Shown here: in pieces, positions 877-10,884 of the stretch
Layout of the letters: the number at the start of each line of letters is the position of its first letter
How positions within the stretch are numbered: the stretch's first letter is position 1
Assembly (NCBI GenBank): GCA_965223845.1
Contig: CBDCXR010000004.1
Span: forward strand, 3,968,001-4,032,000
DNA length: 64,000 nt
Source of the DNA: Planctomycetota bacterium
Lineage (GTDB): Bacteria > Planctomycetota > UBA8108 > SXIK01
Direction of reading: 5' to 3'
Notes under the pieces: generated by a model
Database searches by the model: none
Seen by the model: the letters and a program-made list of their open reading frames with translations, nothing else
What the model was told of the DNA's origin: nothing
Translations under genes and position numbers: made by a program

Positions 877-1839
877 TCACCGGAGCCCCACCGCGCGGTA
901 GACCCGCGCGAGTGTCGCATCTCCGACGACGCGAGCTCGCTTCGCCCCGTCGTCGAGGATGTCGCGGACGCGATCCGGATCCCGGGCGAGCTCCTCGCGG
1001 CGCTCGCGAAACGGGCCGAAGTAGTCGAGGACCTTCGCGAGCAGCTCCTTCTTCGCGTCGCCGTAGCCGTATCCACCCGCTCGGAACCGTTCCGCCATCG
1101 CCGCGACGTCACCGGCAGGCGCGACGAGCTGGTAGAGCTGGTAGACGGTATTCGTCTCGGGGTCCTTGGGTTCCTCGACTCCCTTCGAGTCCGTCACGAT
1201 CTTCATGATCGAGCTCTTCAGCCGTTTCTTCGACGCAAACATCTCGATCGTGTTCCCGTAGCTCTTCGACATCTTCTGCCCGTCCGTCCCGGGAACCGCC
1301 TCAGCGCCCTTCTCGACCTCGGCGTCGGGTAGAACGAGCGTCTCTCCGTAGAGATGGTTGAACCGCTGCGCGACATCACGCGTGACTTCGAGGTGCTGCA
1401 CCTGGTCCTTTCCGACCGGGACGCGCTCCGAGTCGTAGAGGAGGATGTCGGCCGCCATGAGGACCGGGTACGAGAAGAGCCCGTGGCTCGCTTCGATCCC
1501 CTTGGCGAGCTTGTCCTTGTAGCTGTGACAGCGCTCGAGGAGCCCCATCGACGTAATCGTAGACAGCACCCACGCGAGCTCGACGACCTGCGGGACGTCC
1601 GACTGTCGAAAGAGAACGGCGCGCGACGGATCGAGTCCGGCGGCGAGATAATCGAGCGCTACGTCGTAAACGTTTTCGCGCAGCGTCTCCGCGTCGCGGA
1701 TCGTCGTGAGCGCGTGGTAGTCCGCGATGAAATAGAAGCACTCGTGCGCGTCCTGGCGTGCGACGTGCTGGCGCATCGCGCCGAAGTAATTCCCGAGGTG
1801 GAGGATTCCGGAGGGTTGGATACCCGATAGGTAACGCAT
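877..1839 (-). CDS. trpS: tryptophanyl-tRNA synthetase
   Basis: [16 protein letters not shown] (HIGH-type), [22 protein letters not shown] and KMSKS motifs. Confidence 0.97.
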
Positions 1840-1923: not shown

Positions 1924-2835
1924 TCAGGCGTCGCGCTCTTCATCGCCCTCTTCCGCGAGCCAGTCGCGCGGAGAGCGAAGTGCGGCGAGAAGCTCGGCCT
2001 CCGGGCCCTCGTCGGGAAACGCGGGATCGTAATCCCAGTGCACCGCGGGTGGAAGAGACATGAGGATCGATTCGATCCGCCCCTTCGAGCGCAATCCGAA
2101 TACGGTGCCTCGGTCGTAGAGAAGATTGAACTCGACGTACCTCCCGCGGCGGAGAAGCTGAAACTCGCGCTCGGAGTCGTTCCACGGCTCGTTCTTGCGA
2201 CGCTCGACAATGGGGACGTAGGCGTCGAGAAACGCTCCGCCGAGGTCCTTCCACCACGCCAGCAGTCGCTCTCGTCCAGCCGCATCGTCGGCCGAAAGGT
2301 GGTCGAAAAAAATTCCGCCGATCCCCCGGCCTTCGCCCCGGTGCGGGAGGTAGAAGTACTCGTCGCACCACTTCTTGAAGCGCGCGTAGTAGCCGGGATC
2401 GTAGCGGTCGCAGACGTCCTTCCACACGCGGTGAAAACCACGGGCGTCCTCGGGAAAGAGAACGTACGGAGTGAGGTCGGCTCCGCCGCCGAACCACCAG
2501 CGTTCGCCGCGCTCGAGGTAGCGAAAGTTCGCGTGCACGGTCGGGACTCGAGGATGTCGCGGGTGGAGGACGAGCGAAATCCCGGTCGCGTAGAATGAGC
2601 TTCCTTCACCGGCGAGCTGATCGGAGAGCTTCGCGTCGACTTCGCCGTGCACCTCGGAGACGTTCACCCCACCCTTCTCGAACACGCCGCCGTCACGAAT
2701 CACCCGCGTACGCCCGCCGCCGCCGCCGGGACGCGTCCAGAGGTCCTCCCGAAACGGACACCCATCGAGCGCCGATAGGCGCTCGGTGATGGTGTCCTGA
2801 AGCTCGTAGACAAACTGGCGGCAGGTCTCGCGCAA
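1924..2835 (-). CDS. hemF: oxygen-dependent coproporphyrinogen III oxidase
   Basis: EKGGVNVS, HPRHPRVPTVHANFRY, WWFGGGADLTP and RRGRYVEFNLLYDRGT motifs; TTG start with AGGGAG RBS. Confidence 0.96.
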   Translation of the reverse strand: MRETCRQFVYELQDTITERLSALDGCPFREDLWTRPGGGGGRTRVIRDGGVFEKGGVNVSEVHGEVDAKLSDQLAGEGSSFYATGISLVLHPRHPRVPTVHANFRYLERGERWWFGGGADLTPYVLFPEDARGFHRVWKDVCDRYDPGYYARFKKWCDEYFYLPHRGEGRGIGGIFFDHLSADDAAGRERLLAWWKDLGGAFLDAYVPIVERRKNEPWNDSEREFQLLRRGRYVEFNLLYDRGTVFGLRSKGRIESILMSLPPAVHWDYDPAFPDEGPEAELLAALRSPRDWLAEEGDEERDA

Positions 2836-2979: not shown

Positions 2980-3110
2980 CTCTATAAAAAAAGAACTTAA
3001 GTCAACTGCTCAACATCTACAAAACGCGTTTGGACCGGAAAATTCCTTGCGAGCTCCGCCCCGACAGCGAGATAATCCCTTTATTCACTGTCGGAAGGCA
3101 ACTTGACGCC
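2980..3110. promoter_or_regulatory. AT-rich divergent promoter region between hemF and the Pup-like/PafA locus, containing an imperfect inverted repeat (3061-3094)
   Basis: Marked local drop in GC (TCTATAAAAAAAGAACTTAAGTCAAC). CCGACAGCGAGATAA-TCCCT-TTATTCACTGTCGG can pair. Confidence 0.5.
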
Positions 3111-3232
3111 GACCGCGAGTGGACCCCGGCAGTGATGGGAGAGGGCTGTGAAAGCACCGAAATCGGGCCGCCGAAGCGAACCCGAGCGTGGTGCGTGTGG
3201 ATTCACGGCATGGGAACGCACGGGGAGCACCG

Positions 3233-3418
3233 ATGAAAGCTGACGCCGAAGCGAATCAGGCCTCGACTCCTTCGACTCCGTTCGACGCGGAGAGAACGGC
3301 GAAGAGAGCCCGGCAGGCGCTTATTCGTCGCGACTTGTACGCGCTTCTTTTGAGCGACGCCAAAGATCGAGCGAGTGACTATCCGGCCCGGTTTCAGGTC
3401 GGTAGCGGCGCCGAATAG
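3233..3418 (+). CDS. 61-aa small protein, candidate Pup/UBact-like modifier
   Basis: GGGGAG RBS before ATG 3233; disordered N-terminus, helical middle, C-terminus ASDYPARFQVGSGAE with terminal Glu; directly upstream of a PafA/Dop homolog. Confidence 0.6.
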   Translation: MKADAEANQASTPSTPFDAERTAKRARQALIRRDLYALLLSDAKDRASDYPARFQVGSGAE

Positions 3419-3634
3419 GACACACGCCTCCGCGCGGCGGTGGCGACGAGAGCGGGACCGGAACTCGAGGCCAGGGCGCTCGAGGCTCGGAACCGTCACC
3501 CTCTCGTGTTCTGCCCGGGAACGGCCGGGTCGACTTGATTTTGGCTCGCGCGCAAGAACGCCGGCGTCGGTCGAGCGGGAGCTACTTCCGCGGTCCGCTT
3601 CCTCTCGAAGATTCGAACGACGGCGGCCGCGACC

Positions 3635-5557
3635 ATGACCAGCTTCGAGCACGAATCGCCGCCCGGCGACGCCGCCGCCCGAGGCGAAGGCGCCCTCCCC
3701 GCCGGAGGGCCGCGTCCCGGGATCTTCGGTCTCGAGACGGAGTACGCGATCCTCTACGACGGCGACGACGAGCCGCCGTTCGAGACGATCGAAAAAGTCC
3801 TCTTCGAGGCACTCCTCAGCGGACGTAAGGCCGCTCAGTCCGGAGGGCTGAAGGGCGGATACTTCCTCGCGAACGGCGGCATGCTCCACCTCGAGGCGTA
3901 CATCCGCCGCCAGGCCGATACCCGAATACTCGAGCTGGCCACGCCCGAGTGTCGGAGCGCGATGGATCTCACCGTCTACTCGCGCGCATTCGACAACATC
4001 CTCGAGGAGACGAGCACGCGATCGCAGGTGGCGCTCGAAGCACTCGGGTACGACGGAAAGATCGTCTTCGCGAAGAACAATATGGATTCGCGCCAGATCG
4101 GTTACGGCTGTCACGAAAACTATCTCACCTACTACCGCCCGCCCCCGTCCGCGCTCTGGCTCTTCCTCCTCGCTACGCCGCTCCTTCTCCTCTCCCTGAT
4201 CCCCATCGTCATCAGCATCGTCTGCGGTCTCCTCCTCGTCTACGTTCCGCTGACGATCGGATTCTTGATCGCGCCGGTCGGACGCTTCTTCCGGTGGCTC
4301 TACGAGCGCGCGATCGAGACGCGCCCGTGGATCACCGAGAACGTGCGCGGCGGTCTCATCTTGTTTCTCACCCTCCTGCTTCTCCTCCCGGTGAAACTCT
4401 ACACGTGGATCCTCCGCCGGGTCGCGTTCGTGCCGCTCCTCGCGGAGCTCACTCCGTTCCTCGTCACGCGACAAGTCTTCGCGGGAACCGGCTACGTCAA
4501 CTTTCGCGAAGGGGTCTTCGAGCTTTCTCAGCGCCCCTTCCTCACGCGCTCCCTAGCCACGATCACGCTTCTCGGGCGGAAGAAGACAGTGTTCGACTTG
4601 AAGGGGTTTCTCTTCGATCCGTGGCAGCTCTTTCGACGAACGAAGAAGCTCACGGTGAGCGTCGGCGATTCGAATCTCTCGGACGTGCCGCTCTTCCTCA
4701 AGGTCGGAACGACTGCCCTCCTCGTCGAAATGCTCGAGCGCGGCGAGTCGTTTCGCGACCTGCGCCTCCGACGACCGATCCGAGCGCTGCGCGAAATCTC
4801 CCGCGGGGGACCGTGGAAGCAGGTACGCCTCGCCCGCGGCGAGCAGCTCTCGGCGATCGAGCTCCAGCGGGCCTACCTCCGTCGAGCGCAGGCGTTCTTC
4901 GCGGATCGAGCCGACGACAAGTCGGGTCACGACGAGATCCTGCGCCTCTGGGAAGAGACGCTCGATCGTCTCGCGGACCGGCCTCAACTGCTCGCCGACA
5001 CTCTCGATTGGGTGGCGAAGAAATCGCTCCTCGACCAGGCCGTCCTCGCGGTGGGAAACTGGAAGACATTCTTCGCGTGGGGACGAGTCCTGCGCGCCGC
5101 CGGGTCGGAGTGCGCCGCGTCCGCGCGAAGCGCGAGCGAGCTTCTTCGGCTCGCGCCGTGGTACCGACGGCGGAGAGCCCGCCGGCTTCTCGACTCGCAA
5201 GACCTCGAGCGCGGGGAGTTCACCGCCTACCGCGATCTCTATTTCCAGGCCCAGAACATCGACCTTCGCTTCCACGAGCTCGGCGCGTCCGAAGGCTATC
5301 AGCGTCAACTCGAGGACGCGGGCTTGATCGATCGCATGACTGACGACGAGACCGTGCTTCGCGCCGAAGACACTCCCCCGCCCGATACTCGGGCTCGCGT
5401 CCGCGGCTACTACATCGCCGAGAGCGCCAAGCCGGAGCACGTCATCGCCTCGTGGAACGAAATCGAGCTCCTCGATCCGCCGCGGCACGTCCCCCTCCCC
5501 GATCCGTTCTTTTCCCGCGTGCCGACGGATACTGACGACAGCGACCAGGCCGGCTGA
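3635..5557 (+). CDS. PafA/Dop (Pup ligase/deamidase) family protein with a transmembrane insertion
   Basis: GLETEY, LANGG, ELATPEC, KNNMD..GYGCHENYL, FLVTRQVFAGTG, SQR, GDSNLS, LKVGTT, LDWVAK, DLRFH, PPPDTRARVRG, SW and DPF motifs. Hydrophobic segments at about 4150-4430. Confidence 0.9.
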   Translation: MTSFEHESPPGDAAARGEGALPAGGPRPGIFGLETEYAILYDGDDEPPFETIEKVLFEALLSGRKAAQSGGLKGGYFLANGGMLHLEAYIRRQADTRILELATPECRSAMDLTVYSRAFDNILEETSTRSQVALEALGYDGKIVFAKNNMDSRQIGYGCHENYLTYYRPPPSALWLFLLATPLLLLSLIPIVISIVCGLLLVYVPLTIGFLIAPVGRFFRWLYERAIETRPWITENVRGGLILFLTLLLLLPVKLYTWILRRVAFVPLLAELTPFLVTRQVFAGTGYVNFREGVFELSQRPFLTRSLATITLLGRKKTVFDLKGFLFDPWQLFRRTKKLTVSVGDSNLSDVPLFLKVGTTALLVEMLERGESFRDLRLRRPIRALREISRGGPWKQVRLARGEQLSAIELQRAYLRRAQAFFADRADDKSGHDEILRLWEETLDRLADRPQLLADTLDWVAKKSLLDQAVLAVGNWKTFFAWGRVLRAAGSECAASARSASELLRLAPWYRRRRARRLLDSQDLERGEFTAYRDLYFQAQNIDLRFHELGASEGYQRQLEDAGLIDRMTDDETVLRAEDTPPPDTRARVRGYYIAESAKPEHVIASWNEIELLDPPRHVPLPDPFFSRVPTDTDDSDQAG

Positions 5558-5639: not shown

Positions 5640-6263
5640 ATGGGAATGAAGAAGATCCTCGATCCGTACTCGCGCGCGTTCGCGATTCTCTCGCGCCACG
5701 CCGAACCGGCGTCTCGCCGGTTCGAGATTCTCACGATCCACAGTGTGCTGGTGGCGAACGAAGCGCGGACCATCGCCGAACGCTATCTCGACCGTCACCC
5801 CGATGCGGAGATCGATCTCGATTTCCTGCGCGAGGCGTCGCTCCTTCACGACATCGGCGTCGTGCGGTGTCACGCACCCGAGATCGGCTGCCAAGGGACG
5901 GAGCCCTACATTCGGCACGGCGTCGAGGGACGTCGCATTCTCGAGGCCGAAGGGCTGCCGCGACACGCCCTCATTTGCGAGCGGCACACTGGAAGCGGGA
6001 TTTCGGCCGCCGACGTGGTCGAGCAGGAACTCCCCCTCGAGCCGAAGGACTACCTTCCGCTCTCCCTCGAAGAGAAGATCATCTGCGTCGCGGACAAGTT
6101 TTACGGCAAGAAGCCGAACCGCCTCTGGCAGCGAAAGCCGCTCGAGAAAATCGAGGCGCAAATCTCATCGAAGGGCGACGGCCCGCGAATGCGCTGGGCG
6201 GAGCTTCGCGCGATGTTCCTGGACGGCATCAAGAGCGATGCCGCAGCGCCGTCGACGCCCTAA
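5640..6263 (+). CDS. HD-domain metal-dependent phosphohydrolase (HDIG type)
   Basis: HS.LVA, LLHDIG, RHGVEG, CERHTG and EEKIICVADKF motifs. Confidence 0.88.
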   Translation: MGMKKILDPYSRAFAILSRHAEPASRRFEILTIHSVLVANEARTIAERYLDRHPDAEIDLDFLREASLLHDIGVVRCHAPEIGCQGTEPYIRHGVEGRRILEAEGLPRHALICERHTGSGISAADVVEQELPLEPKDYLPLSLEEKIICVADKFYGKKPNRLWQRKPLEKIEAQISSKGDGPRMRWAELRAMFLDGIKSDAAAPSTP

Positions 6264-6323: not shown

Positions 6324-7487
6324 TCACTCCGGCTCGGGCGGGTCTCCTCGGGGCTCCTCGACGCGATCGAGCGCAACTCGCTTCACGTGCCACCGCGTCG
6401 AGCCGAAGCGGTCCGTCTCGCCGACGAACGGGACGTGCACCGCGAGTGCGCGGGATTCGATCAGCCATCCCGATGGCAGTTCGAACGAGAGCGACTCTTC
6501 CGCCGCCCAGCCGTCCGGCCGCCGCCAAAGTTCGCCCCGAGCTATGACCTGAGTGACGCCGTCGACCTTCCGCGCCTTCTCGATCTTGTAGCGAATTCCG
6601 CGCAGATCGACCGTTCCATCGCGGCGCGGTCGCTCGAGTCCGGGGGTGACGATCCGCTCGACCGCTCCGCGAAGAAGCCATTCCACCTCCGGGAAGATCG
6701 CGAGCGGGAATGCCGCCGGGAGCCTCTCCTCGAGCGTGCGACGAAACCTCGGCAGCTCGGCCTGCAATCCGCGCGAGGAAAAGCGCACCTCGATGTCCTC
6801 GCCGACGAGAAACGGGAGGCTCGCCGCGACGAGCTGCGATTCGATCATACTCCGCGCGTGGGATGAGACGAGCGGGAGGCGCCACGCGCCGGCGAGGCGG
6901 GCGACGATGTTGGTCGCTGTCCGCCGGAGCTCGGGTGTGCGCGGATCGAGGGCCCACTCGCGGTCTCGATTCGCATCGTCGACGTAGCGCGACTGAAATC
7001 GCAGGATCCGCACCCGCGGTCGGCGCGCGTCCGCAAGATCGAGCTCGAGGACGAGCCCGACCTGCACCGGATCCCCCGCCACGCCTGCGCCCTGGGCGCG
7101 ATCGAGCGCGTCGCTAAGCGGATCGTCCTGCGGAATCCTCGTTCGCGTTCGGCGGACGAACCGGCGCCGCGCGGGCGGATGGACCCAGCCCCGCGAAAAT
7201 CGGACCTCGAAGCTCGCACGCTCCGCCCCGCGCGCGAGATCGATGCCGGCCGCTGGCGAGGGGCCGTCGCGCGACTGGTCGGCGGGCGCGTCGCCGTCGC
7301 CCGCCGGTGGTCCTTTCGGTTCCCGAGGACCCTCCTCCGGCGGCGGATCCTCTCCGCGCTCGATCTCTCCGCCGGACAGGCGCACCTGTCCGAATAGGGA
7401 GAAAAGGAGCGCCGCGGTGACGGCCATCTGCCAGGTGATGGCCGAACCGAACTCTACGCGTCTCCGTCTCGCGATCGGTTCGCTCAT
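6324..7487 (-). CDS. hypothetical exported/membrane-anchored protein
   Basis: Long ORF with an N-terminal hydrophobic segment and Pro-rich linker. Start placed at MSEPIARR (track start 7613). Confidence 0.55.
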   Translation of the reverse strand: MSEPIARRRRVEFGSAITWQMAVTAALLFSLFGQVRLSGGEIERGEDPPPEEGPREPKGPPAGDGDAPADQSRDGPSPAAGIDLARGAERASFEVRFSRGWVHPPARRRFVRRTRTRIPQDDPLSDALDRAQGAGVAGDPVQVGLVLELDLADARRPRVRILRFQSRYVDDANRDREWALDPRTPELRRTATNIVARLAGAWRLPLVSSHARSMIESQLVAASLPFLVGEDIEVRFSSRGLQAELPRFRRTLEERLPAAFPLAIFPEVEWLLRGAVERIVTPGLERPRRDGTVDLRGIRYKIEKARKVDGVTQVIARGELWRRPDGWAAEESLSFELPSGWLIESRALAVHVPFVGETDRFGSTRWHVKRVALDRVEEPRGDPPEPE

Positions 7488-7986
7488 CGTCGCAATCCTC
7501 CACCGGACGGCGCTCTCGAATCCGCTCGATCGCGGAACCGGCGATCGACGTCCGAAGCGCGCCCCTATCTTCGGACCGTCGGAGGAGGAGTTCAACCAAC
7601 GCCGGGCGAGCAACGAGAAAGAATCCGGAACGAATCACCCGGATCGAGCGAAATCCGCACCCGCCCCGCGCACGGACACGAGTCGTAGAATCGACGAATG
7701 CGATCCGGACATCGATCAGAACCGCGCGCGCTGAGCCGCGCAGGCCGTAGATTGTTCTGGGATCCGCACCGAGCATTTCGGATGATGGCGGCGCCCGAAG
7801 GCGACTCGCGGGCGCGCGAAGTCGCAATCGAGAGCAGTGCTTCCATCGGTTGCCTGGCGCAGCGCGAGAGAACGTTTCGCTCTGCGCTTTTTTGCGACGC
7901 CGGGGTTGTTGCCGGTTCGAACTTCGATCCCTCGCACCCGCTAGTTCGTTTCCTCCTTCGCCTTCGCTGTCGGTCTCCCTCGTAGG

Positions 7987-10884
7987 GTGCTCATGATCGA
8001 TCCTCTCTCGCACCGGGGCTCGCGAGCCTGCCCGTACCTTCCCGATCTGACCTTGGCAGTCCGCTTCACCGTCGCGATCGTCGCGACCGCGGCCAGCGTC
8101 GTACCGGTCGCATCGGCGGACACCGCACGAGACGTTCCCGTTCCCCGGGCCGTACAGCCCGGCGTCGCGATTACGCTCTACGCGCGTGAGCCCGATCTCG
8201 CGACTCCCGTCGCTCTCGATGTCGACGACGCCGGTCGCGTCTGGGTCATCGAAAGCAACACGCACTTCCAGCCGCCCGAGTACGAGCGACACCCCACGGA
8301 CCGCGTCCTCGTGTTCGAAGGAAGAACGGCGGCGGGTCGTTTCGAACGCGTGTCGACGTTCACCGACGGGCTCGAGCAGGCGATGGCCCTCCGCGTGATC
8401 GGTCCCGGCGAGATCCTCCTCGCCACCCGGCGCGATGTGATGGTGCTTCGCGACACGGACGAAAACGGCCGCGCCGACAAGCGGACCTACCTCGCTAGAC
8501 TCGAGACGAAGGAGGTGTATCCGCACAACGGACTCACGGGATTCGCCGTCGACTCGCTCGGATACGTCTACTTCGCGATCGGCGAAAACATGGGAGTGCC
8601 GTACCGACTCGTCGGGACGGACGGACGCACGCAGGAGGGAGGACCGGATGGCGGCAGCATCTTCCGCATCCGGCCCGACGGGACCGAGCTCGAGCGCTGG
8701 GCCGTCGGCTTTTGGAATACGTTTCACCTCGCGTTCGACGATCGCGGACGCCTCTTCGCCGTCGACAACGATCCCGACTCTCGACCGCCGTGCCGCCTCC
8801 TCCACATCGTTCGCGGCGGCGACTACGGCTATCGGCGCTGGCTCGGACGAAAGGGCCTCCACCCGTTCACTTCCTGGAACGGCGGCCTTCCGGGGACCCT
8901 CCCGATGGTCGCCGGAACCGGCGAGGCTCCGTCGGGGATCGTCACGTACTCGCACACCGCGCTCCCGAGCGAGCTCTACGGTCAGCTCCTCGTCACGTCG
9001 TGGGGCGACTATCGTCTCGAAAGCTACCGGCTCGAGCCGGAAGGCGCTTCGTTTCGCGCGCGTCGATCGATCGTCGTCGAGGGCGACGATCGGTTTCGTC
9101 CGGTCGGGATCGCGGTCGCGCCCGACGGAGCGGTGTTCATCTCCGACTGGGTCTCGAAGGACTACCACGTTCACGCAAAGGGTCGCATCTGGCGCGTCGC
9201 CGCGGCATCGGAGACGGCGACGACGAAGGACGACGGAACCGCCGAGGGAGGATCGCTCGACGTCGACGATGCGCGAATCGCCTTCGCAAGCGAGGTGCGG
9301 CGGACGCGTGCGGAGGCGGTGCGCGCCGTCGCGCGCGAAGACGGCGGTTCGGCGATCGCGGACACGATCTTTCGCCGCGCGGTCGACTCTCCGGGTGCTC
9401 GCTACCACGCGGCCGAAGTGTTCGCGAAGCGCGGAGACTGGACCCTCGACCGGCTGACGCGCGGGCTCACCGACGCGGATCCCGACATCCGCGCGGCGAC
9501 GATTCGGCTCGCGAGCTCGACCTTCGTCGTACCGCTTCCGCGCCTGTTCGCGGCGCTCACCGACGCGTCGCCGCGGGTTCAGCTCGACGCCCTTCTCGTT
9601 CTTGCGCACCACCGCTCGCTCGCCCCGAGCCATCCGTCCGCGGCGGACGCGCTCGCACGCGTCCGTCCGTTCCTTGCGAGCGCGGACCCGTTTCTCCGCT
9701 CCGCCGCGGCCGATGTGCTCCTGCGGCTACTCGATCCCGACGCGCTCGTGCAGTCGGCGTCCGGAGCACCGCTCGAAGAACTGGACGCATGGATCGGCGC
9801 GCTCCGGCGTTCCAAGGCGGAATCGGCGCGAACGGTTCTTCCCGGACTCCTCGAGCACGAGTCGCCCGCGATTCGGCGCGCCGCGATCCAGTGGGTCGGT
9901 GAAGAAAAACTGGAGTCGTTCGCCGCGGCACTCGACCGGGCGGTCCGGCGGAGACCGCTGACGCGCGAGGTGGTCGACGCGTACCTCGCCGCGAAGACTC
10001 TCCTCGCCGGCGACTCGCCCGAGCGACACGATCAGGACGGGCGCGACGCGATGCTCGCCGCCCTTCTCCTCGATTCGAACCAACCTTCCGAGCTTCGGGA
10101 GGTCGCGGTTCGATGCCTGTCGCCCGCGAGCGGCGTGATCTACAGCAAGAGGCTCGCCGAGCTTCTTCGCGGTGACGGTGTTTCGGAATCGCTCCGGCTC
10201 GAGATCGTCCGCGCGCTCGCGACGCGCGGGGACTCGAAGTCCGTCCTCGTCGCCATCGCCGGAGACGCGGACGCCGGCATCGCCGAACGCCGCGCCGCGG
10301 TCGTCGGCCTCGCGGCGTTCCTGCCGGACGTCGACTCGGAGCTCGACCGACTCCGCATGGACGCTCCCGATCGACTTCGAACCGAGATCGACCGGGCGCG
10401 CCGATTCGCGCGCGCGCCCGCGACGAACGAGAGCTCAGCCGAGCGCCGCGCCGGGGCTCTCTCCGGCGGGAACGCGGCCGAGGGAAGATTCCTTTTCGAC
10501 TACCCGATCGGACCGCGCTGCGCGTCGTGTCACACGATCGCCGGGCGCGGAGGATCAGCGGGTCCCGATCTCACGACGATCGGGACGCGTCCGCGCGAGA
10601 CCATCGTCGACAGCGTTCTAGAGCCCGCAAAGGACGTCGCGCCACAGTTCGCTCCGTGGGTCTTCGTTACGCCGTCGGGAACGAAGAGCGGAACCGTGCT
10701 CGGCGAAGGAGTCGACGGAACCATCCTCCTCGGCCAGGCGAACGGTGAAGTCGAGCGCATCGGGAGGGAGGAGATCCTCGAGCGCCACGCGGGCGAGGGC
10801 TCCGTGATGCCCGCAGATCTCACCGCGCTGCTCACGGACGAAGAACTGCGCGACTTGATCGCATATCTCGTCGCGCAACGCTGA
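7987..10884 (+). CDS. PVC-type heme-binding CxxCH protein (dehydrogenase-like propeller, HEAT repeats, cytochrome c)
   Basis: DTDENGRAD repeat and GFWN/DND propeller motifs, HEAT-like repeats, CASCH followed by GPDLT and a distal SVMP Met ligand. Confidence 0.88.
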   Translation: MLMIDPLSHRGSRACPYLPDLTLAVRFTVAIVATAASVVPVASADTARDVPVPRAVQPGVAITLYAREPDLATPVALDVDDAGRVWVIESNTHFQPPEYERHPTDRVLVFEGRTAAGRFERVSTFTDGLEQAMALRVIGPGEILLATRRDVMVLRDTDENGRADKRTYLARLETKEVYPHNGLTGFAVDSLGYVYFAIGENMGVPYRLVGTDGRTQEGGPDGGSIFRIRPDGTELERWAVGFWNTFHLAFDDRGRLFAVDNDPDSRPPCRLLHIVRGGDYGYRRWLGRKGLHPFTSWNGGLPGTLPMVAGTGEAPSGIVTYSHTALPSELYGQLLVTSWGDYRLESYRLEPEGASFRARRSIVVEGDDRFRPVGIAVAPDGAVFISDWVSKDYHVHAKGRIWRVAAASETATTKDDGTAEGGSLDVDDARIAFASEVRRTRAEAVRAVAREDGGSAIADTIFRRAVDSPGARYHAAEVFAKRGDWTLDRLTRGLTDADPDIRAATIRLASSTFVVPLPRLFAALTDASPRVQLDALLVLAHHRSLAPSHPSAADALARVRPFLASADPFLRSAAADVLLRLLDPDALVQSASGAPLEELDAWIGALRRSKAESARTVLPGLLEHESPAIRRAAIQWVGEEKLESFAAALDRAVRRRPLTREVVDAYLAAKTLLAGDSPERHDQDGRDAMLAALLLDSNQPSELREVAVRCLSPASGVIYSKRLAELLRGDGVSESLRLEIVRALATRGDSKSVLVAIAGDADAGIAERRAAVVGLAAFLPDVDSELDRLRMDAPDRLRTEIDRARRFARAPATNESSAERRAGALSGGNAAEGRFLFDYPIGPRCASCHTIAGRGGSAGPDLTTIGTRPRETIVDSVLEPAKDVAPQFAPWVFVTPSGTKSGTVLGEGVDGTILLGQANGEVERIGREEILERHAGEGSVMPADLTALLTDEELRDLIAYLVAQR

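What the first reader, a model, noticed from the sequence alone, without database searches (positions are those of the whole stretch)
3233..5557. Candidate proteasome-unlinked, membrane-tethered pupylation-like system: divergent Pup-like tag plus PafA homolog
Seen: a 61-aa ORF with a good RBS, a low-complexity N-terminus and C-terminus RASDYPARFQVGSGAE. It sits 216 bp upstream of, and co-oriented with, a clear PafA/Dop-family gene. Established: actinobacterial Pup (about 64 aa) ends roughly NAEDFVRAYVQKGG[QE] (recalled from memory), and UBact ends in G[EQ]. Both are ligated through the terminal Glu gamma-carboxylate, and both are normally encoded beside proteasome and ATPase genes. By-eye alignment keeps A-x-D-aromatic-x3-aromatic, the glycines and a terminal Glu, but the ending is GAE rather than GGE. 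A terminal Glu would need no deamidation, which fits there being a single ligase gene here. No proteasome subunit or ARC/Mpa ATPase occurs in the window. Inference: a further class of bacterial small-protein modifier, easily missed by annotation, that may tag membrane proteins.
Basis: partly seen in the sequence, partly recalled or inferred. Interest (0 to 1): 0.88.

Follow-up and report, generated by a model that had tools for sequence, protein, structure and literature searches.

The report
Membrane-anchored Pup-like tag and ligase
A small gene and the membrane-anchored Pup-ligase gene next to it form a real, conserved protein-tagging pair that works without a proteasome, but this kind of system was already predicted from planctomycete genomes in 2008 and is still untested.

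Summary
A 61-aa ORF (3233-3418, +) ending in GAE lies 216 bp upstream of a 640-aa Pup-ligase-family gene (3635-5557, +; PF03136, E 1.7e-81). That gene carries a hydrophobic four-helix insertion. The small ORF is a real gene: 32 of 35 assessable loci with this ligase type have a co-oriented upstream small ORF ending in G-x-E or x-G-E, against about 0.013 expected by chance per site. All 32 end in Glu, never Gln. The genome (91.7% complete) yielded one Pup-ligase gene, no 20S proteasome and no Mpa/ARC ATPase. A co-fold places the tag's tail in the ligase active-site region (score 0.82, best control 0.00). A solved PafA-Pup complex exists, so this pass may reflect likeness. The tag matches neither the Pup nor the UBact models (0 of 25 members).

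Iyer, Burroughs and Aravind (2008) described Pup plus a Pup ligase with four inserted transmembrane segments, unlinked to proteasome genes, in Rhodopirellula and Plesiocystis. They proposed that it pupylates membrane proteins. This locus is a new member of that kind. My literature searches found no experimental test.

The parts
3047..3076 (+). Sigma-70-like promoter match (TTGCGA, 18 nt spacer, GATAAT), about 155 nt upstream of the tag gene. Weak lead only.
   Evidence: 1 site found against 0.1 expected in shuffles. A consensus match is not evidence of function.
3222..3227 (+). Shine-Dalgarno-like GGGGAG, 5 nt before the tag start codon.
   Evidence: Read from the sequence. Purine-rich sites also precede the chosen starts in orthologous loci.
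3233..3418 (+). Pup-like tag gene, 61 aa. It has a variable, low-complexity N-terminal half and a conserved C-terminal part, ..L.DA.....Y[VL]..[YFW]..G.G[AG]E, followed by the stop.
   Evidence: D42, A43, Y50, G59 and E61 are invariant in 14 orthologs. It is a single copy in the genome (E 2.4e-15; next hit 0.025). There is no Pfam or NCBIfam hit.
3419..3634 (+). Intergenic spacer of 216 bp between tag and ligase. No significant RNA structure.
   Evidence: z-score -0.81. In orthologs the tag's stop lies from 8 nt inside to 497 nt before the start of the ligase match. In the most distant family the ligase's likely GTG start follows the stop within a few bases.
3635..5557 (+). Pup-ligase-family enzyme (PafA/Dop homolog), 640 aa. 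It is the only member of the family in this genome.
   Evidence: PF03136, E 1.7e-81; one gene. Dop 4b0r E 1.3e-43, PafA 4b0t E 7.5e-33. AF2 model pLDDT 81.7, pTM 0.83. Foldseek Dop E 1.7e-25, PafA-Pup complex 4bjr E 1.1e-24.
4142..4423 (+). Hydrophobic insertion (about aa 170-263) between the GCHENYL strand and LTPFLVTRQV. It is predicted as four helices and is the presumed membrane anchor.
   Evidence: Kyte-Doolittle 19-aa mean up to 2.95 over residues 170-219, and hydrophobic in all 11 orthologs; helices 171-187, 189-211, 213-229 and 231-263; the insertion falls between Dop residues 161 and 162.

Best explanation
This is a two-gene, proteasome-independent Pup-type tagging cassette of a planctomycete. 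The 61-aa product is a divergent Pup-like tag. Its conserved C-terminal half binds a groove on the ligase, and its terminal Glu reaches the active site.

The ligase is a glutamine-synthetase-fold carboxylate-amine ligase of the PafA/Dop family. By analogy with PafA (inferred, not shown), it would phosphorylate the gamma-carboxylate of the terminal Glu with ATP and pass it to a lysine epsilon-amine, forming an isopeptide bond.

The tag always ends in Glu, so no Dop-type deamidation is needed and one enzyme suffices. A four-helix hydrophobic insertion next to the active-site strand is predicted to hold the enzyme at the cytoplasmic face of the membrane, so the likely substrates are membrane or membrane-proximal proteins.

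The genome has no 20S proteasome or Mpa, so the tag probably regulates or relocates its targets, or hands them to another protease. This step is inferred. Shown here: gene conservation, family membership, fold, absence of proteasome genes, and a predicted complex. Inferred: ATP-dependent conjugation, lysine targets, membrane location, and the fate of tagged proteins.
For: (1) A tag ORF is conserved upstream and co-oriented in 14 of 14 ligase loci from the genome's relatives, even where the ligase is only 34-36% identical. Across all sets it is present in 32 of 35 assessable loci, against 0.013 expected by chance per site.
(2) All 32 tags end in Glu. In contrast, 7 of 13 Pup rows and 7 of 11 UBact rows collected next to two-enzyme loci end in Gln.
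(3) The ligase matches PF03136 at E 1.7e-81. Invariant in 11 orthologs are the G-L-E-T-E motif (the GhExE signature of carboxylate-amine ligases, per Iyer 2008), D95 (aligned to Dop D94), the E, N and Y of HENY, and R279 of TRQV. The H of HENY is Q in 3 of the 11.
(4) The fold matches Dop and PafA with target TM-scores of 0.72-0.85.
(5) Co-fold of ligase and tag: score 0.82 in three runs (0.83, 0.82, 0.82), best of 3 controls 0.00. That mark was reached by 58 of 80 solved complexes and 2 of 110 mismatched pairs. The runs share at least 90% of contacts, and the partner's pLDDT is at least 69. Tag residues 28-59 touch ligase residues 38-41, 94-98, 146, 151-157 and the C-terminal helices 455-564.
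(6) The genome has one Pup-ligase gene, no PF00227 match and no Mpa above cut-off. None of the 9 same-order relatives that carry the ligase has a PF00227 match. The single PF00227 matches in the more distant family are HslV (2 of 2 tested).
(7) The hydrophobic insertion is conserved.
(8) This matches the published prediction for Rhodopirellula and Plesiocystis.
Against: The co-fold pass may come from likeness to the solved PafA-Pup complex (4bjr), so it shows resemblance rather than binding.

The tag has no significant sequence similarity to Pup or UBact: hhalign E 0.017 and 0.11 at probabilities of 2.6% and 0.5%, and 0 of 25 members hit the Pup or UBact models. The window's tag ends in GAE, not GG[EQ].

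The ligase is below the NCBIfam equivalog cut-offs for both PafA (230 vs 551 bits) and Dop (183 vs 492 bits). Its best solved sequence match is the hydrolase Dop, not PafA, so ligase versus hydrolase activity is not settled by sequence.

Three ligase loci of this type (L028, L106, L197) have no adjacent tag. A profile search of the L028 genome found none (best E 0.66).

The linked membrane-protein gene that Iyer et al. describe was not found conserved here. No RNA data were available.
Confidence: 0.72

Rival explanations
1. The pair is a peptide-to-small-amine ligation system. The membrane-embedded carboxylate-amine ligase joins the peptide's terminal Glu to a lipid head-group amine (such as phosphatidylethanolamine or an ornithine lipid) or to a polyamine, not to protein lysines. 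The result is a lipid-anchored peptide, analogous to Atg8 lipidation.
For: The hydrophobic insertion sits directly after the active-site HENY strand, which would place the catalytic pocket near the membrane surface. No proteasome or other reader of the tag was found. No conserved third gene suggests a protein substrate. The wider GS-fold superfamily ligates Glu carboxylates to small amines (Iyer 2008).
Against: Every characterised member of PF03136 acts on protein-linked Pup; this is established knowledge, not from a call. The tag-binding groove and tail geometry are predicted to resemble PafA-Pup. No lipid-related gene is linked.
Confidence: 0.07
2. The enzyme is mainly a hydrolase (Dop-like amidase or depupylase), or a bifunctional enzyme that both adds and removes the tag, rather than a dedicated ligase.
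For: The best solved sequence matches are Dop (152 bits) rather than PafA (117 bits), and the best fold match is Dop. In an unrooted tree this ligase type lies outside both the named PafA and the named Dop groups (SH-aLRT 98-99). Hecht et al. 2020 likewise used the single planctomycete homolog as an outgroup to both. It is the only family member in the genome, so any removal of the tag would fall to it.
Against: A pure hydrolase would have nothing to hydrolyse. All 32 tags end in Glu, so no deamidation is needed, and no second ligase exists. NCBIfam scores PafA above Dop (230 vs 183 bits). In the window protein, the stretch between the GLETE motif and the NGG motif, where I place Dop's loop from recall rather than from any call, is short.
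Confidence: 0.15
3. The small ORF is not a conjugated tag. It is either a spurious open frame in a GC-rich genome or a small regulatory or chaperone peptide that binds the ligase without being ligated.
For: GC-rich DNA here carries many long spurious ORFs on all frames. The ORF has no database family. Few copies are called as genes in public collections: 11 proteins at E <= 0.01 among 5.8 billion. No RNA or proteomic evidence was available.
Against: Conservation at the protein level in 32 of 35 loci across families of the phylum and in an Acidobacteriota MAG, against 0.013 expected by chance. The stop codon always directly follows Glu. Ribosome-binding-like sites precede the chosen starts. The tail is predicted to enter the active-site region.
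Confidence: 0.04

Closest known systems
Membrane-anchored, proteasome-unlinked Pup/Pup-ligase pair predicted in Rhodopirellula baltica and Plesiocystis pacifica (Iyer, Burroughs, Aravind 2008, Biol Direct 3:45; PMC2588565, passages read)
   Same: The small Pup-like gene is adjacent to a single Pup-ligase homolog. The ligase has an insertion of about four hydrophobic helices just after a core strand. There is no linkage to proteasome genes. The host is a planctomycete. The proposed role is tagging of membrane-associated proteins.
   Different: The paper describes a linked membrane-protein gene. No conserved one was found here. The paper gives a G[EQ] terminal signature. The window's tag ends in G-A-E, and all 32 tags seen end in E. 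I could not see the paper's Additional file 1 (supplements are closed), so the Rhodopirellula tag sequence was not compared directly.
Actinobacterial Pup-PafA-Dop-Mpa-20S proteasome system
   Same: The ligase belongs to PF03136 and has the same fold. The tag is similar in size, has a disordered N-terminal half and a conserved C-terminal half ending in Glu, and has the aromatic-V-x-x-aromatic spacing that hhalign lines up with Pup's F-V-E-N-Y (not significant). The tag gene lies next to a ligase gene.
   Different: There is one enzyme instead of PafA plus Dop, and no proteasome or Mpa. The ligase has a transmembrane insertion and lies outside the PafA and Dop groups in the tree. The tag is missed by Pfam Pup PF05639 (0 of 25 members; control 13 of 13). 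It has one more residue between the second aromatic position and the terminus, and ends in GAE or GGE but never in Gln.
UBact (NCBIfam NF033388) of Latescibacterota, Armatimonadota, Verrucomicrobiota and others
   Same: It is a small tag outside Actinobacteria with a conserved C-terminal Y-R-x-x-x-G-[EQ]-like tail, encoded next to Pup-ligase homologs.
   Different: The UBact model matches 11 of 11 UBact controls but 0 of 25 members of this family; hhalign gives E 0.11. In the loci gathered here, the UBact genes stand beside ligase-family matches of about 390-490 residues, the size of PafA and Dop without an insertion. That UBact loci normally hold two ligase paralogs and proteasome genes is recalled from Lehmann et al. 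2017, which is not in the library; I did not check it in these loci.

Membership tests
Pup-ligase family (Pfam PF03136; PafA/Dop) | Profile match above the curated cut-off | tested here: met
   274.9 bits against a cut-off of 25, E 1.7e-81.
Pup-ligase family (Pfam PF03136; PafA/Dop) | GS-like fold with the GhExE signature and conserved active-site motifs | tested here: met
   GLETE (32-36), D95, the E, N and Y of HENY, and R279 of TRQV are invariant in 11 orthologs; the H of HENY is Q in 3 of them. D95 aligns to Dop D94. Foldseek: Dop E 1.7e-25, PafA E 7.9e-20 to 1.1e-24. The catalytic role of that Asp is recalled, not taken from a call.
PafA proper (NCBIfam TIGR03686 equivalog) | Score above the equivalog cut-off | tested here: not met
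   230.3 bits against 551.3. In the tree it lies outside the named PafA group.
Dop proper (NCBIfam TIGR03688 equivalog) | Score above the equivalog cut-off | tested here: not met
   182.9 bits against 492.3. In the tree it lies outside the named Dop group.
Pup (Pfam PF05639) | Profile match | tested here: not met
   0 of 25 tag-family members at E <= 10. The positive control gave 13 of 13. The genome scan's best match was E 0.96, at another place.
Pup (Pfam PF05639) | C-terminal G-G-[EQ] next to a ligase gene | tested here: inconclusive
   Adjacency is met. The ending is G-A-E in the window and its close kin, and G-G-E in many more distant members.
UBact (NCBIfam NF033388) | Profile match | tested here: not met
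   0 of 25 members. The positive control gave 11 of 11.
Membrane-anchored Pup system of Iyer et al. 2008 | Insertion of about 4 TM segments in the ligase after a core strand | tested here: met
   four helices at residues 171-263 after the HENY strand. Of the best 150 cluster representatives, 141 have a 19-aa window with Kyte-Doolittle mean >= 1.6.
Membrane-anchored Pup system of Iyer et al. 2008 | No linkage to proteasome genes | tested here: met
Membrane-anchored Pup system of Iyer et al. 2008 | Pup-like gene adjacent to the ligase | tested here: met
Membrane-anchored Pup system of Iyer et al. 2008 | Linked membrane-protein gene | tested here: not met
   The only neighbours shared by 5 or more loci are the ligase, its shadow frames and hemF. 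Most loci had only 1.5-kb flanks.
Pup-type conjugation (function) | ATP-dependent isopeptide bond from the terminal Glu to substrate Lys | not testable with these tools
   Only a predicted complex is available.

The most novel reading that the evidence does not exclude
The membrane-embedded single enzyme does not, or not only, tag proteins. It ligates the terminal Glu of the peptide to amine head groups of membrane lipids. That would be a bacterial counterpart of Atg8/LC3 lipidation, built on the Pup chemistry and representing the single-enzyme form that lies outside both PafA and Dop.
Probability: 0.05. Interest if true: 0.9.

Novelty: new member of a known kind. Interest (0 to 1): 0.42.

Why it matters
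Pup-type tagging is studied almost entirely as a route to the actinobacterial proteasome. This clade has one membrane-anchored enzyme, a ready-to-ligate tag and no proteasome, so it asks what such tagging does on its own.

The ligase clade is broad: 141 of the best 150 cluster representatives carry the hydrophobic segment. Its tag genes are missed by current Pup and UBact models and are mostly unnamed.

The tag profile and the motif rule found here (a small co-oriented ORF ending in G-x-E directly before the ligase) would let annotators find these genes. The two-gene cassette is small enough for a direct conjugation test of a prediction that has stood since 2008. A compact, membrane-tethered PafA-like enzyme could also be useful for proximity labelling.

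Tried and rejected
**Sequence comparison with known tags.** Profile-profile comparison of the tag family with Pup and UBact gave no significant similarity (E 0.017 and 0.11). The same is true of Pup against UBact (E 0.019), so this test cannot settle homology among such short tags.

**Collection scans.** The first scan of genome contigs with the single ligase found no relative; the alignment-based scan did. The metagenome scan added only four loci with this ligase type among the 80 kept.

**Conserved third gene.** A search for a membrane protein or any other conserved third gene found nothing beyond hemF and trpS synteny.

**Intergenic spacer.** No significant RNA structure (z -0.81) and no terminator on the + strand.

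**Expression.** No RNA holder was listed; the four holders are DNA-type runs from one study.

**Literature.** Searches for experimental work on the planctomycete or membrane-anchored system returned only the 2008 prediction and its use as an outgroup in 2020. The UBact paper (Lehmann et al. 2017) is not in the library, so what I say of it is recalled. The supplements of Iyer et al. 2008 and Hecht et al. 2020 may hold the Rhodopirellula tag and ligase alignments, but supplements are closed.

**Labelling slip in the tree.** One row labelled TM-type (P0259, Kyte-Doolittle maximum 1.21) is not hydrophobic and sits on the PafA/Dop side.

**Regex count.** The count of 31 of 35 includes one chance hit (L028, LLLGRE, antisense of mutM). 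It misses two tags ending D-G-E and H-G-E (L196, L203). That gives 32 of 35 by inspection. L198 was dropped because its contig starts 110 nt before the ligase.
Full report
**1. Observation**

The window has an ATG at 3233 and a TAG ending at 3418. This gives a 61-aa ORF, MKADAEANQ...RASDYPARFQVGSGAE. GGGGAG lies 5 nt before the start. After a 216-bp spacer, a 640-aa ORF runs from 3635 to 5557 on the same strand.

The large ORF matches Pfam Pup_ligase PF03136 (E 1.7e-81). It falls below the NCBIfam equivalog cut-offs for both PafA (230 vs 551 bits) and Dop (183 vs 492 bits). The small ORF has no Pfam or NCBIfam match.

**2. Is the small ORF a gene?**

The DNA is GC-rich and carries long spurious frames on every strand, so conservation was the test.

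- A search of 40 relatives' genomes found the ligase in 13, at 34-53% identity.
- In all 14 loci, counting the window's own, a co-oriented ORF ends just before the ligase with the tail G-[RSM]-G-[AG]-E-stop.
- Purine-rich ribosome-binding-like sites precede starts that give products of 46-66 aa.
- D42, A43, Y50, G59 and E61 are invariant.
- In the most distant family of relatives, the tag's stop lies a few bases before the likely GTG start of the ligase.

Wider sampling added further loci:

- an Acidobacteriota MAG with the tag, and a Deltaproteobacteria MAG without it;
- four metagenome loci, three with the tag;
- 16 loci from a 201-genome sample of the phylum: 14 with the tag, one without, and one cut off by the contig end.

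In total, 32 of 35 assessable loci have the tag. A regex count gave 31 of 35. That count includes one chance hit and misses two tags ending D-G-E and H-G-E. The background is 8 similar endings in 366,852 strand-bases, about 0.013 per site. All 32 tags end in Glu.

The window's genome holds a single copy of the tag. In a collection of 5.8 billion proteins, only 11 match the tag profile at E <= 0.01. None carries a name beyond 'hypothetical protein'.

**3. The ligase**

Sequence search of solved structures gives Dop (4b0r, E 1.3e-43) and PafA (4b0t, E 7.5e-33). The motifs GCHENYL, TRQVF, GD.N.S, LK.GTTAL, LDW.AK and PP.DTRA are shared, and D95 aligns with Dop D94. In 11 orthologs the GLETE motif, D95, the E, N and Y of HENY, and R279 of TRQV are invariant; the H of HENY is Q in three of them. 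GLETE is the GhExE signature of carboxylate-amine ligases named by Iyer et al..

About 95 residues are inserted between HENYL and LTPFLVTRQV. They include a 50-residue stretch with a Kyte-Doolittle mean of up to 2.95, and the stretch is hydrophobic in all 11 orthologs.

An AlphaFold2 model (pLDDT 81.7, pTM 0.83) shows four helices there, at 171-187, 189-211, 213-229 and 231-263. The model's best structural matches are Dop and the PafA-Pup complex (E about 1e-25 to 1e-24, target TM-scores 0.72-0.85).

A profile search of 1.84 billion cluster representatives found 5463 family members at E <= 0.001. Of the best 150, 141 carry a strongly hydrophobic segment, so this ligase type is a broad clade. 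Sources call its members 'proteasome accessory factor PafA2 family protein' or 'proteasome accessory factor A'.

In an unrooted quick tree of 39 rows, the 23 hydrophobic rows are separated from the named PafA and Dop groups by branches with SH-aLRT 98-99. One row that I had mislabelled as TM-type lacks the hydrophobic segment and sits on the PafA/Dop side.

**4. Context**

The genome is 7.9 Mb in 4 contigs and 91.7% complete. It has one Pup-ligase gene, no PF00227 match, no Pup match and no Mpa/ARC above cut-off (best 139 bits against 505).

None of the 9 same-order relatives that carry the ligase has a PF00227 match. The single PF00227 matches in the more distant family are HslV (2 of 2 tested). 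These are samples of incomplete genomes, so the statement is 'not found in those searched'.

The only conserved neighbours are hemF, which is divergent upstream in 5 loci, and trpS in 3. The HD-domain gene downstream recurs in one other locus. The conserved unit is therefore the two-gene pair.

Record titles of loci that carry the same tags as same-order relatives name Planctomycetia or Planctomycetota MAGs, which places the window's organism there.

**5. Does the tag fit the ligase?**

A co-fold of the ligase and tag alignments scored 0.82 (runs 0.83, 0.82, 0.82), against 0.00 for the best of three controls. That mark was reached by 58 of 80 solved complexes and 2 of 110 mismatched pairs. The runs agree in at least 90% of contacts, and the partner's pLDDT is at least 69.

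Tag residues 28-44 lie on ligase helices 455-564. Residues 46-59 run to ligase residues 38-41 (the GLETE strand), 94-98 (around D95) and 146-157 (before HENY).

A PafA-Pup complex has been solved (4bjr), so the pass may reflect likeness. It supports 'works like Pup on PafA', not binding as such.

**6. Relation to Pup and UBact**

The loci gathered also supplied 13 classical Pup sequences (...EEFVKNYVQKGG[EQ]) and 11 UBact sequences (...RRYRQRTG[EQ]).

| Test | Pup controls | UBact controls | This tag family |
|---|---|---|---|
| Pfam Pup PF05639 | 13 of 13 | not tested | 0 of 25 |
| NCBIfam UBact NF033388 | not tested | 11 of 11 | 0 of 25 |
| Rows ending in Gln | 7 of 13 | 7 of 11 | 0 of 32 |

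Profile-profile scores are not significant for any pair: tag vs Pup E 0.017, tag vs UBact E 0.11, and Pup vs UBact E 0.019. The tag-Pup alignment puts Y-V-x-x-Y on Pup's F-V-E-N-Y. This tag has one more residue before the terminus.

The absence of Gln endings fits a one-enzyme system that has no deamidase.

**7. What is known**

Iyer, Burroughs and Aravind (2008; passages read) reported Pup orthologs next to Pup ligases in Rhodopirellula and Plesiocystis, with:

- no linkage to proteasome genes;
[quoted passage not shown] - a proposed regulatory pupylation of membrane-associated proteins.

Hecht et al. (2020; passages read) noted a single PafA/Dop homolog in some Planctomycetes and used it as an outgroup.

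My searches found no experimental study of this system. The library lacks many subscription papers, and the supplements could not be read.

**8. Verdict**

It re-discovers a published prediction, so this locus is a new member of a known kind.

- the tag family's motif and its invariant terminal Glu;
- its invisibility to the current Pup and UBact models;
- the breadth of the ligase clade;
- whole-genome absence of proteasome and Mpa genes;
- a predicted tag-ligase complex.

Open points remain. Ligase versus hydrolase activity is not settled by sequence. The substrates and the fate of tagged proteins are unknown. Three ligase loci lack an adjacent tag. The boldest reading not excluded is lipid rather than protein conjugation; I rate it at about 5%.

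Noticed in passing
window 5640-6263 (+): An HD/HDIG-domain protein gene (PF01966, E 2.4e-12) starts 82 bp after the ligase stop on the same strand. A homolog lies next to the ligase in only one other locus (L007), so it is probably not part of the system.
   Followed up: partly
window 1924-2835 (-) and 877-1839 (-): hemF (Coprogen_oxidas, E 2.8e-119) is divergent upstream of the tag gene, followed by a class I Trp/Tyr-type tRNA synthetase gene (PF00579, E 3.7e-61). hemF keeps this position in 5 loci (WIN, L007, L013, L027, L104). This is probably inherited gene order.
   Followed up: partly
L207 361-1035 (+); the same ORF lies in both L209 and L217: Planctomycetota loci with a second ligase-family match nearby on the same contig, and no hydrophobic segment in the match, carry a different small ORF ending ...FLRANRQQGGQ or ...FLSAIRQQGGE. 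The L207 ORF's last 61 residues gave no Pfam hit at E <= 0.001. This may be yet another divergent Pup-like tag class.
   Followed up: partly
L199, L200, L201, L205 (one family of the phylum sample): The upstream tags in this family have lost the D-A and Y-V motif (for example ...RVLYLEVQGGGE) but keep the G-G-G-E ending. Only the extreme tail is universal.
   Followed up: no
L028, L106 (Deltaproteobacteria-like MAG and a metagenome contig), L197: These ligase genes of the same membrane type have no adjacent tag gene. In L028, mutM lies divergent upstream, the ORF after the ligase looks like gatC, and a long frame overlapping the ligase ends in a gatA-like stretch (both read by eye). A profile search of that genome found no tag (best E 0.66). 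The tag may be elsewhere, too divergent to detect, or absent.
   Followed up: partly
window 3512-3545 (+): A short GC hairpin (GCCCGG...CCGGGT) followed by a T-rich stretch lies in the tag-ligase spacer. It might attenuate read-through into the ligase. The terminator scan did not call it, and the spacer fold is not significant.
   Followed up: partly
window 7987-10884 (+): A 965-aa protein with DUF7133, HEAT repeats and a C-terminal cytochrome c domain. From recall, this architecture is common in Planctomycetota and Verrucomicrobiota. It is unrelated to the finding.
   Followed up: no
window 6324-7613 (-): A 429-aa ORF with one hydrophobic N-terminal segment and no Pfam match, convergent with the ligase operon. 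It is not conserved next to the ligase in other loci.
   Followed up: partly
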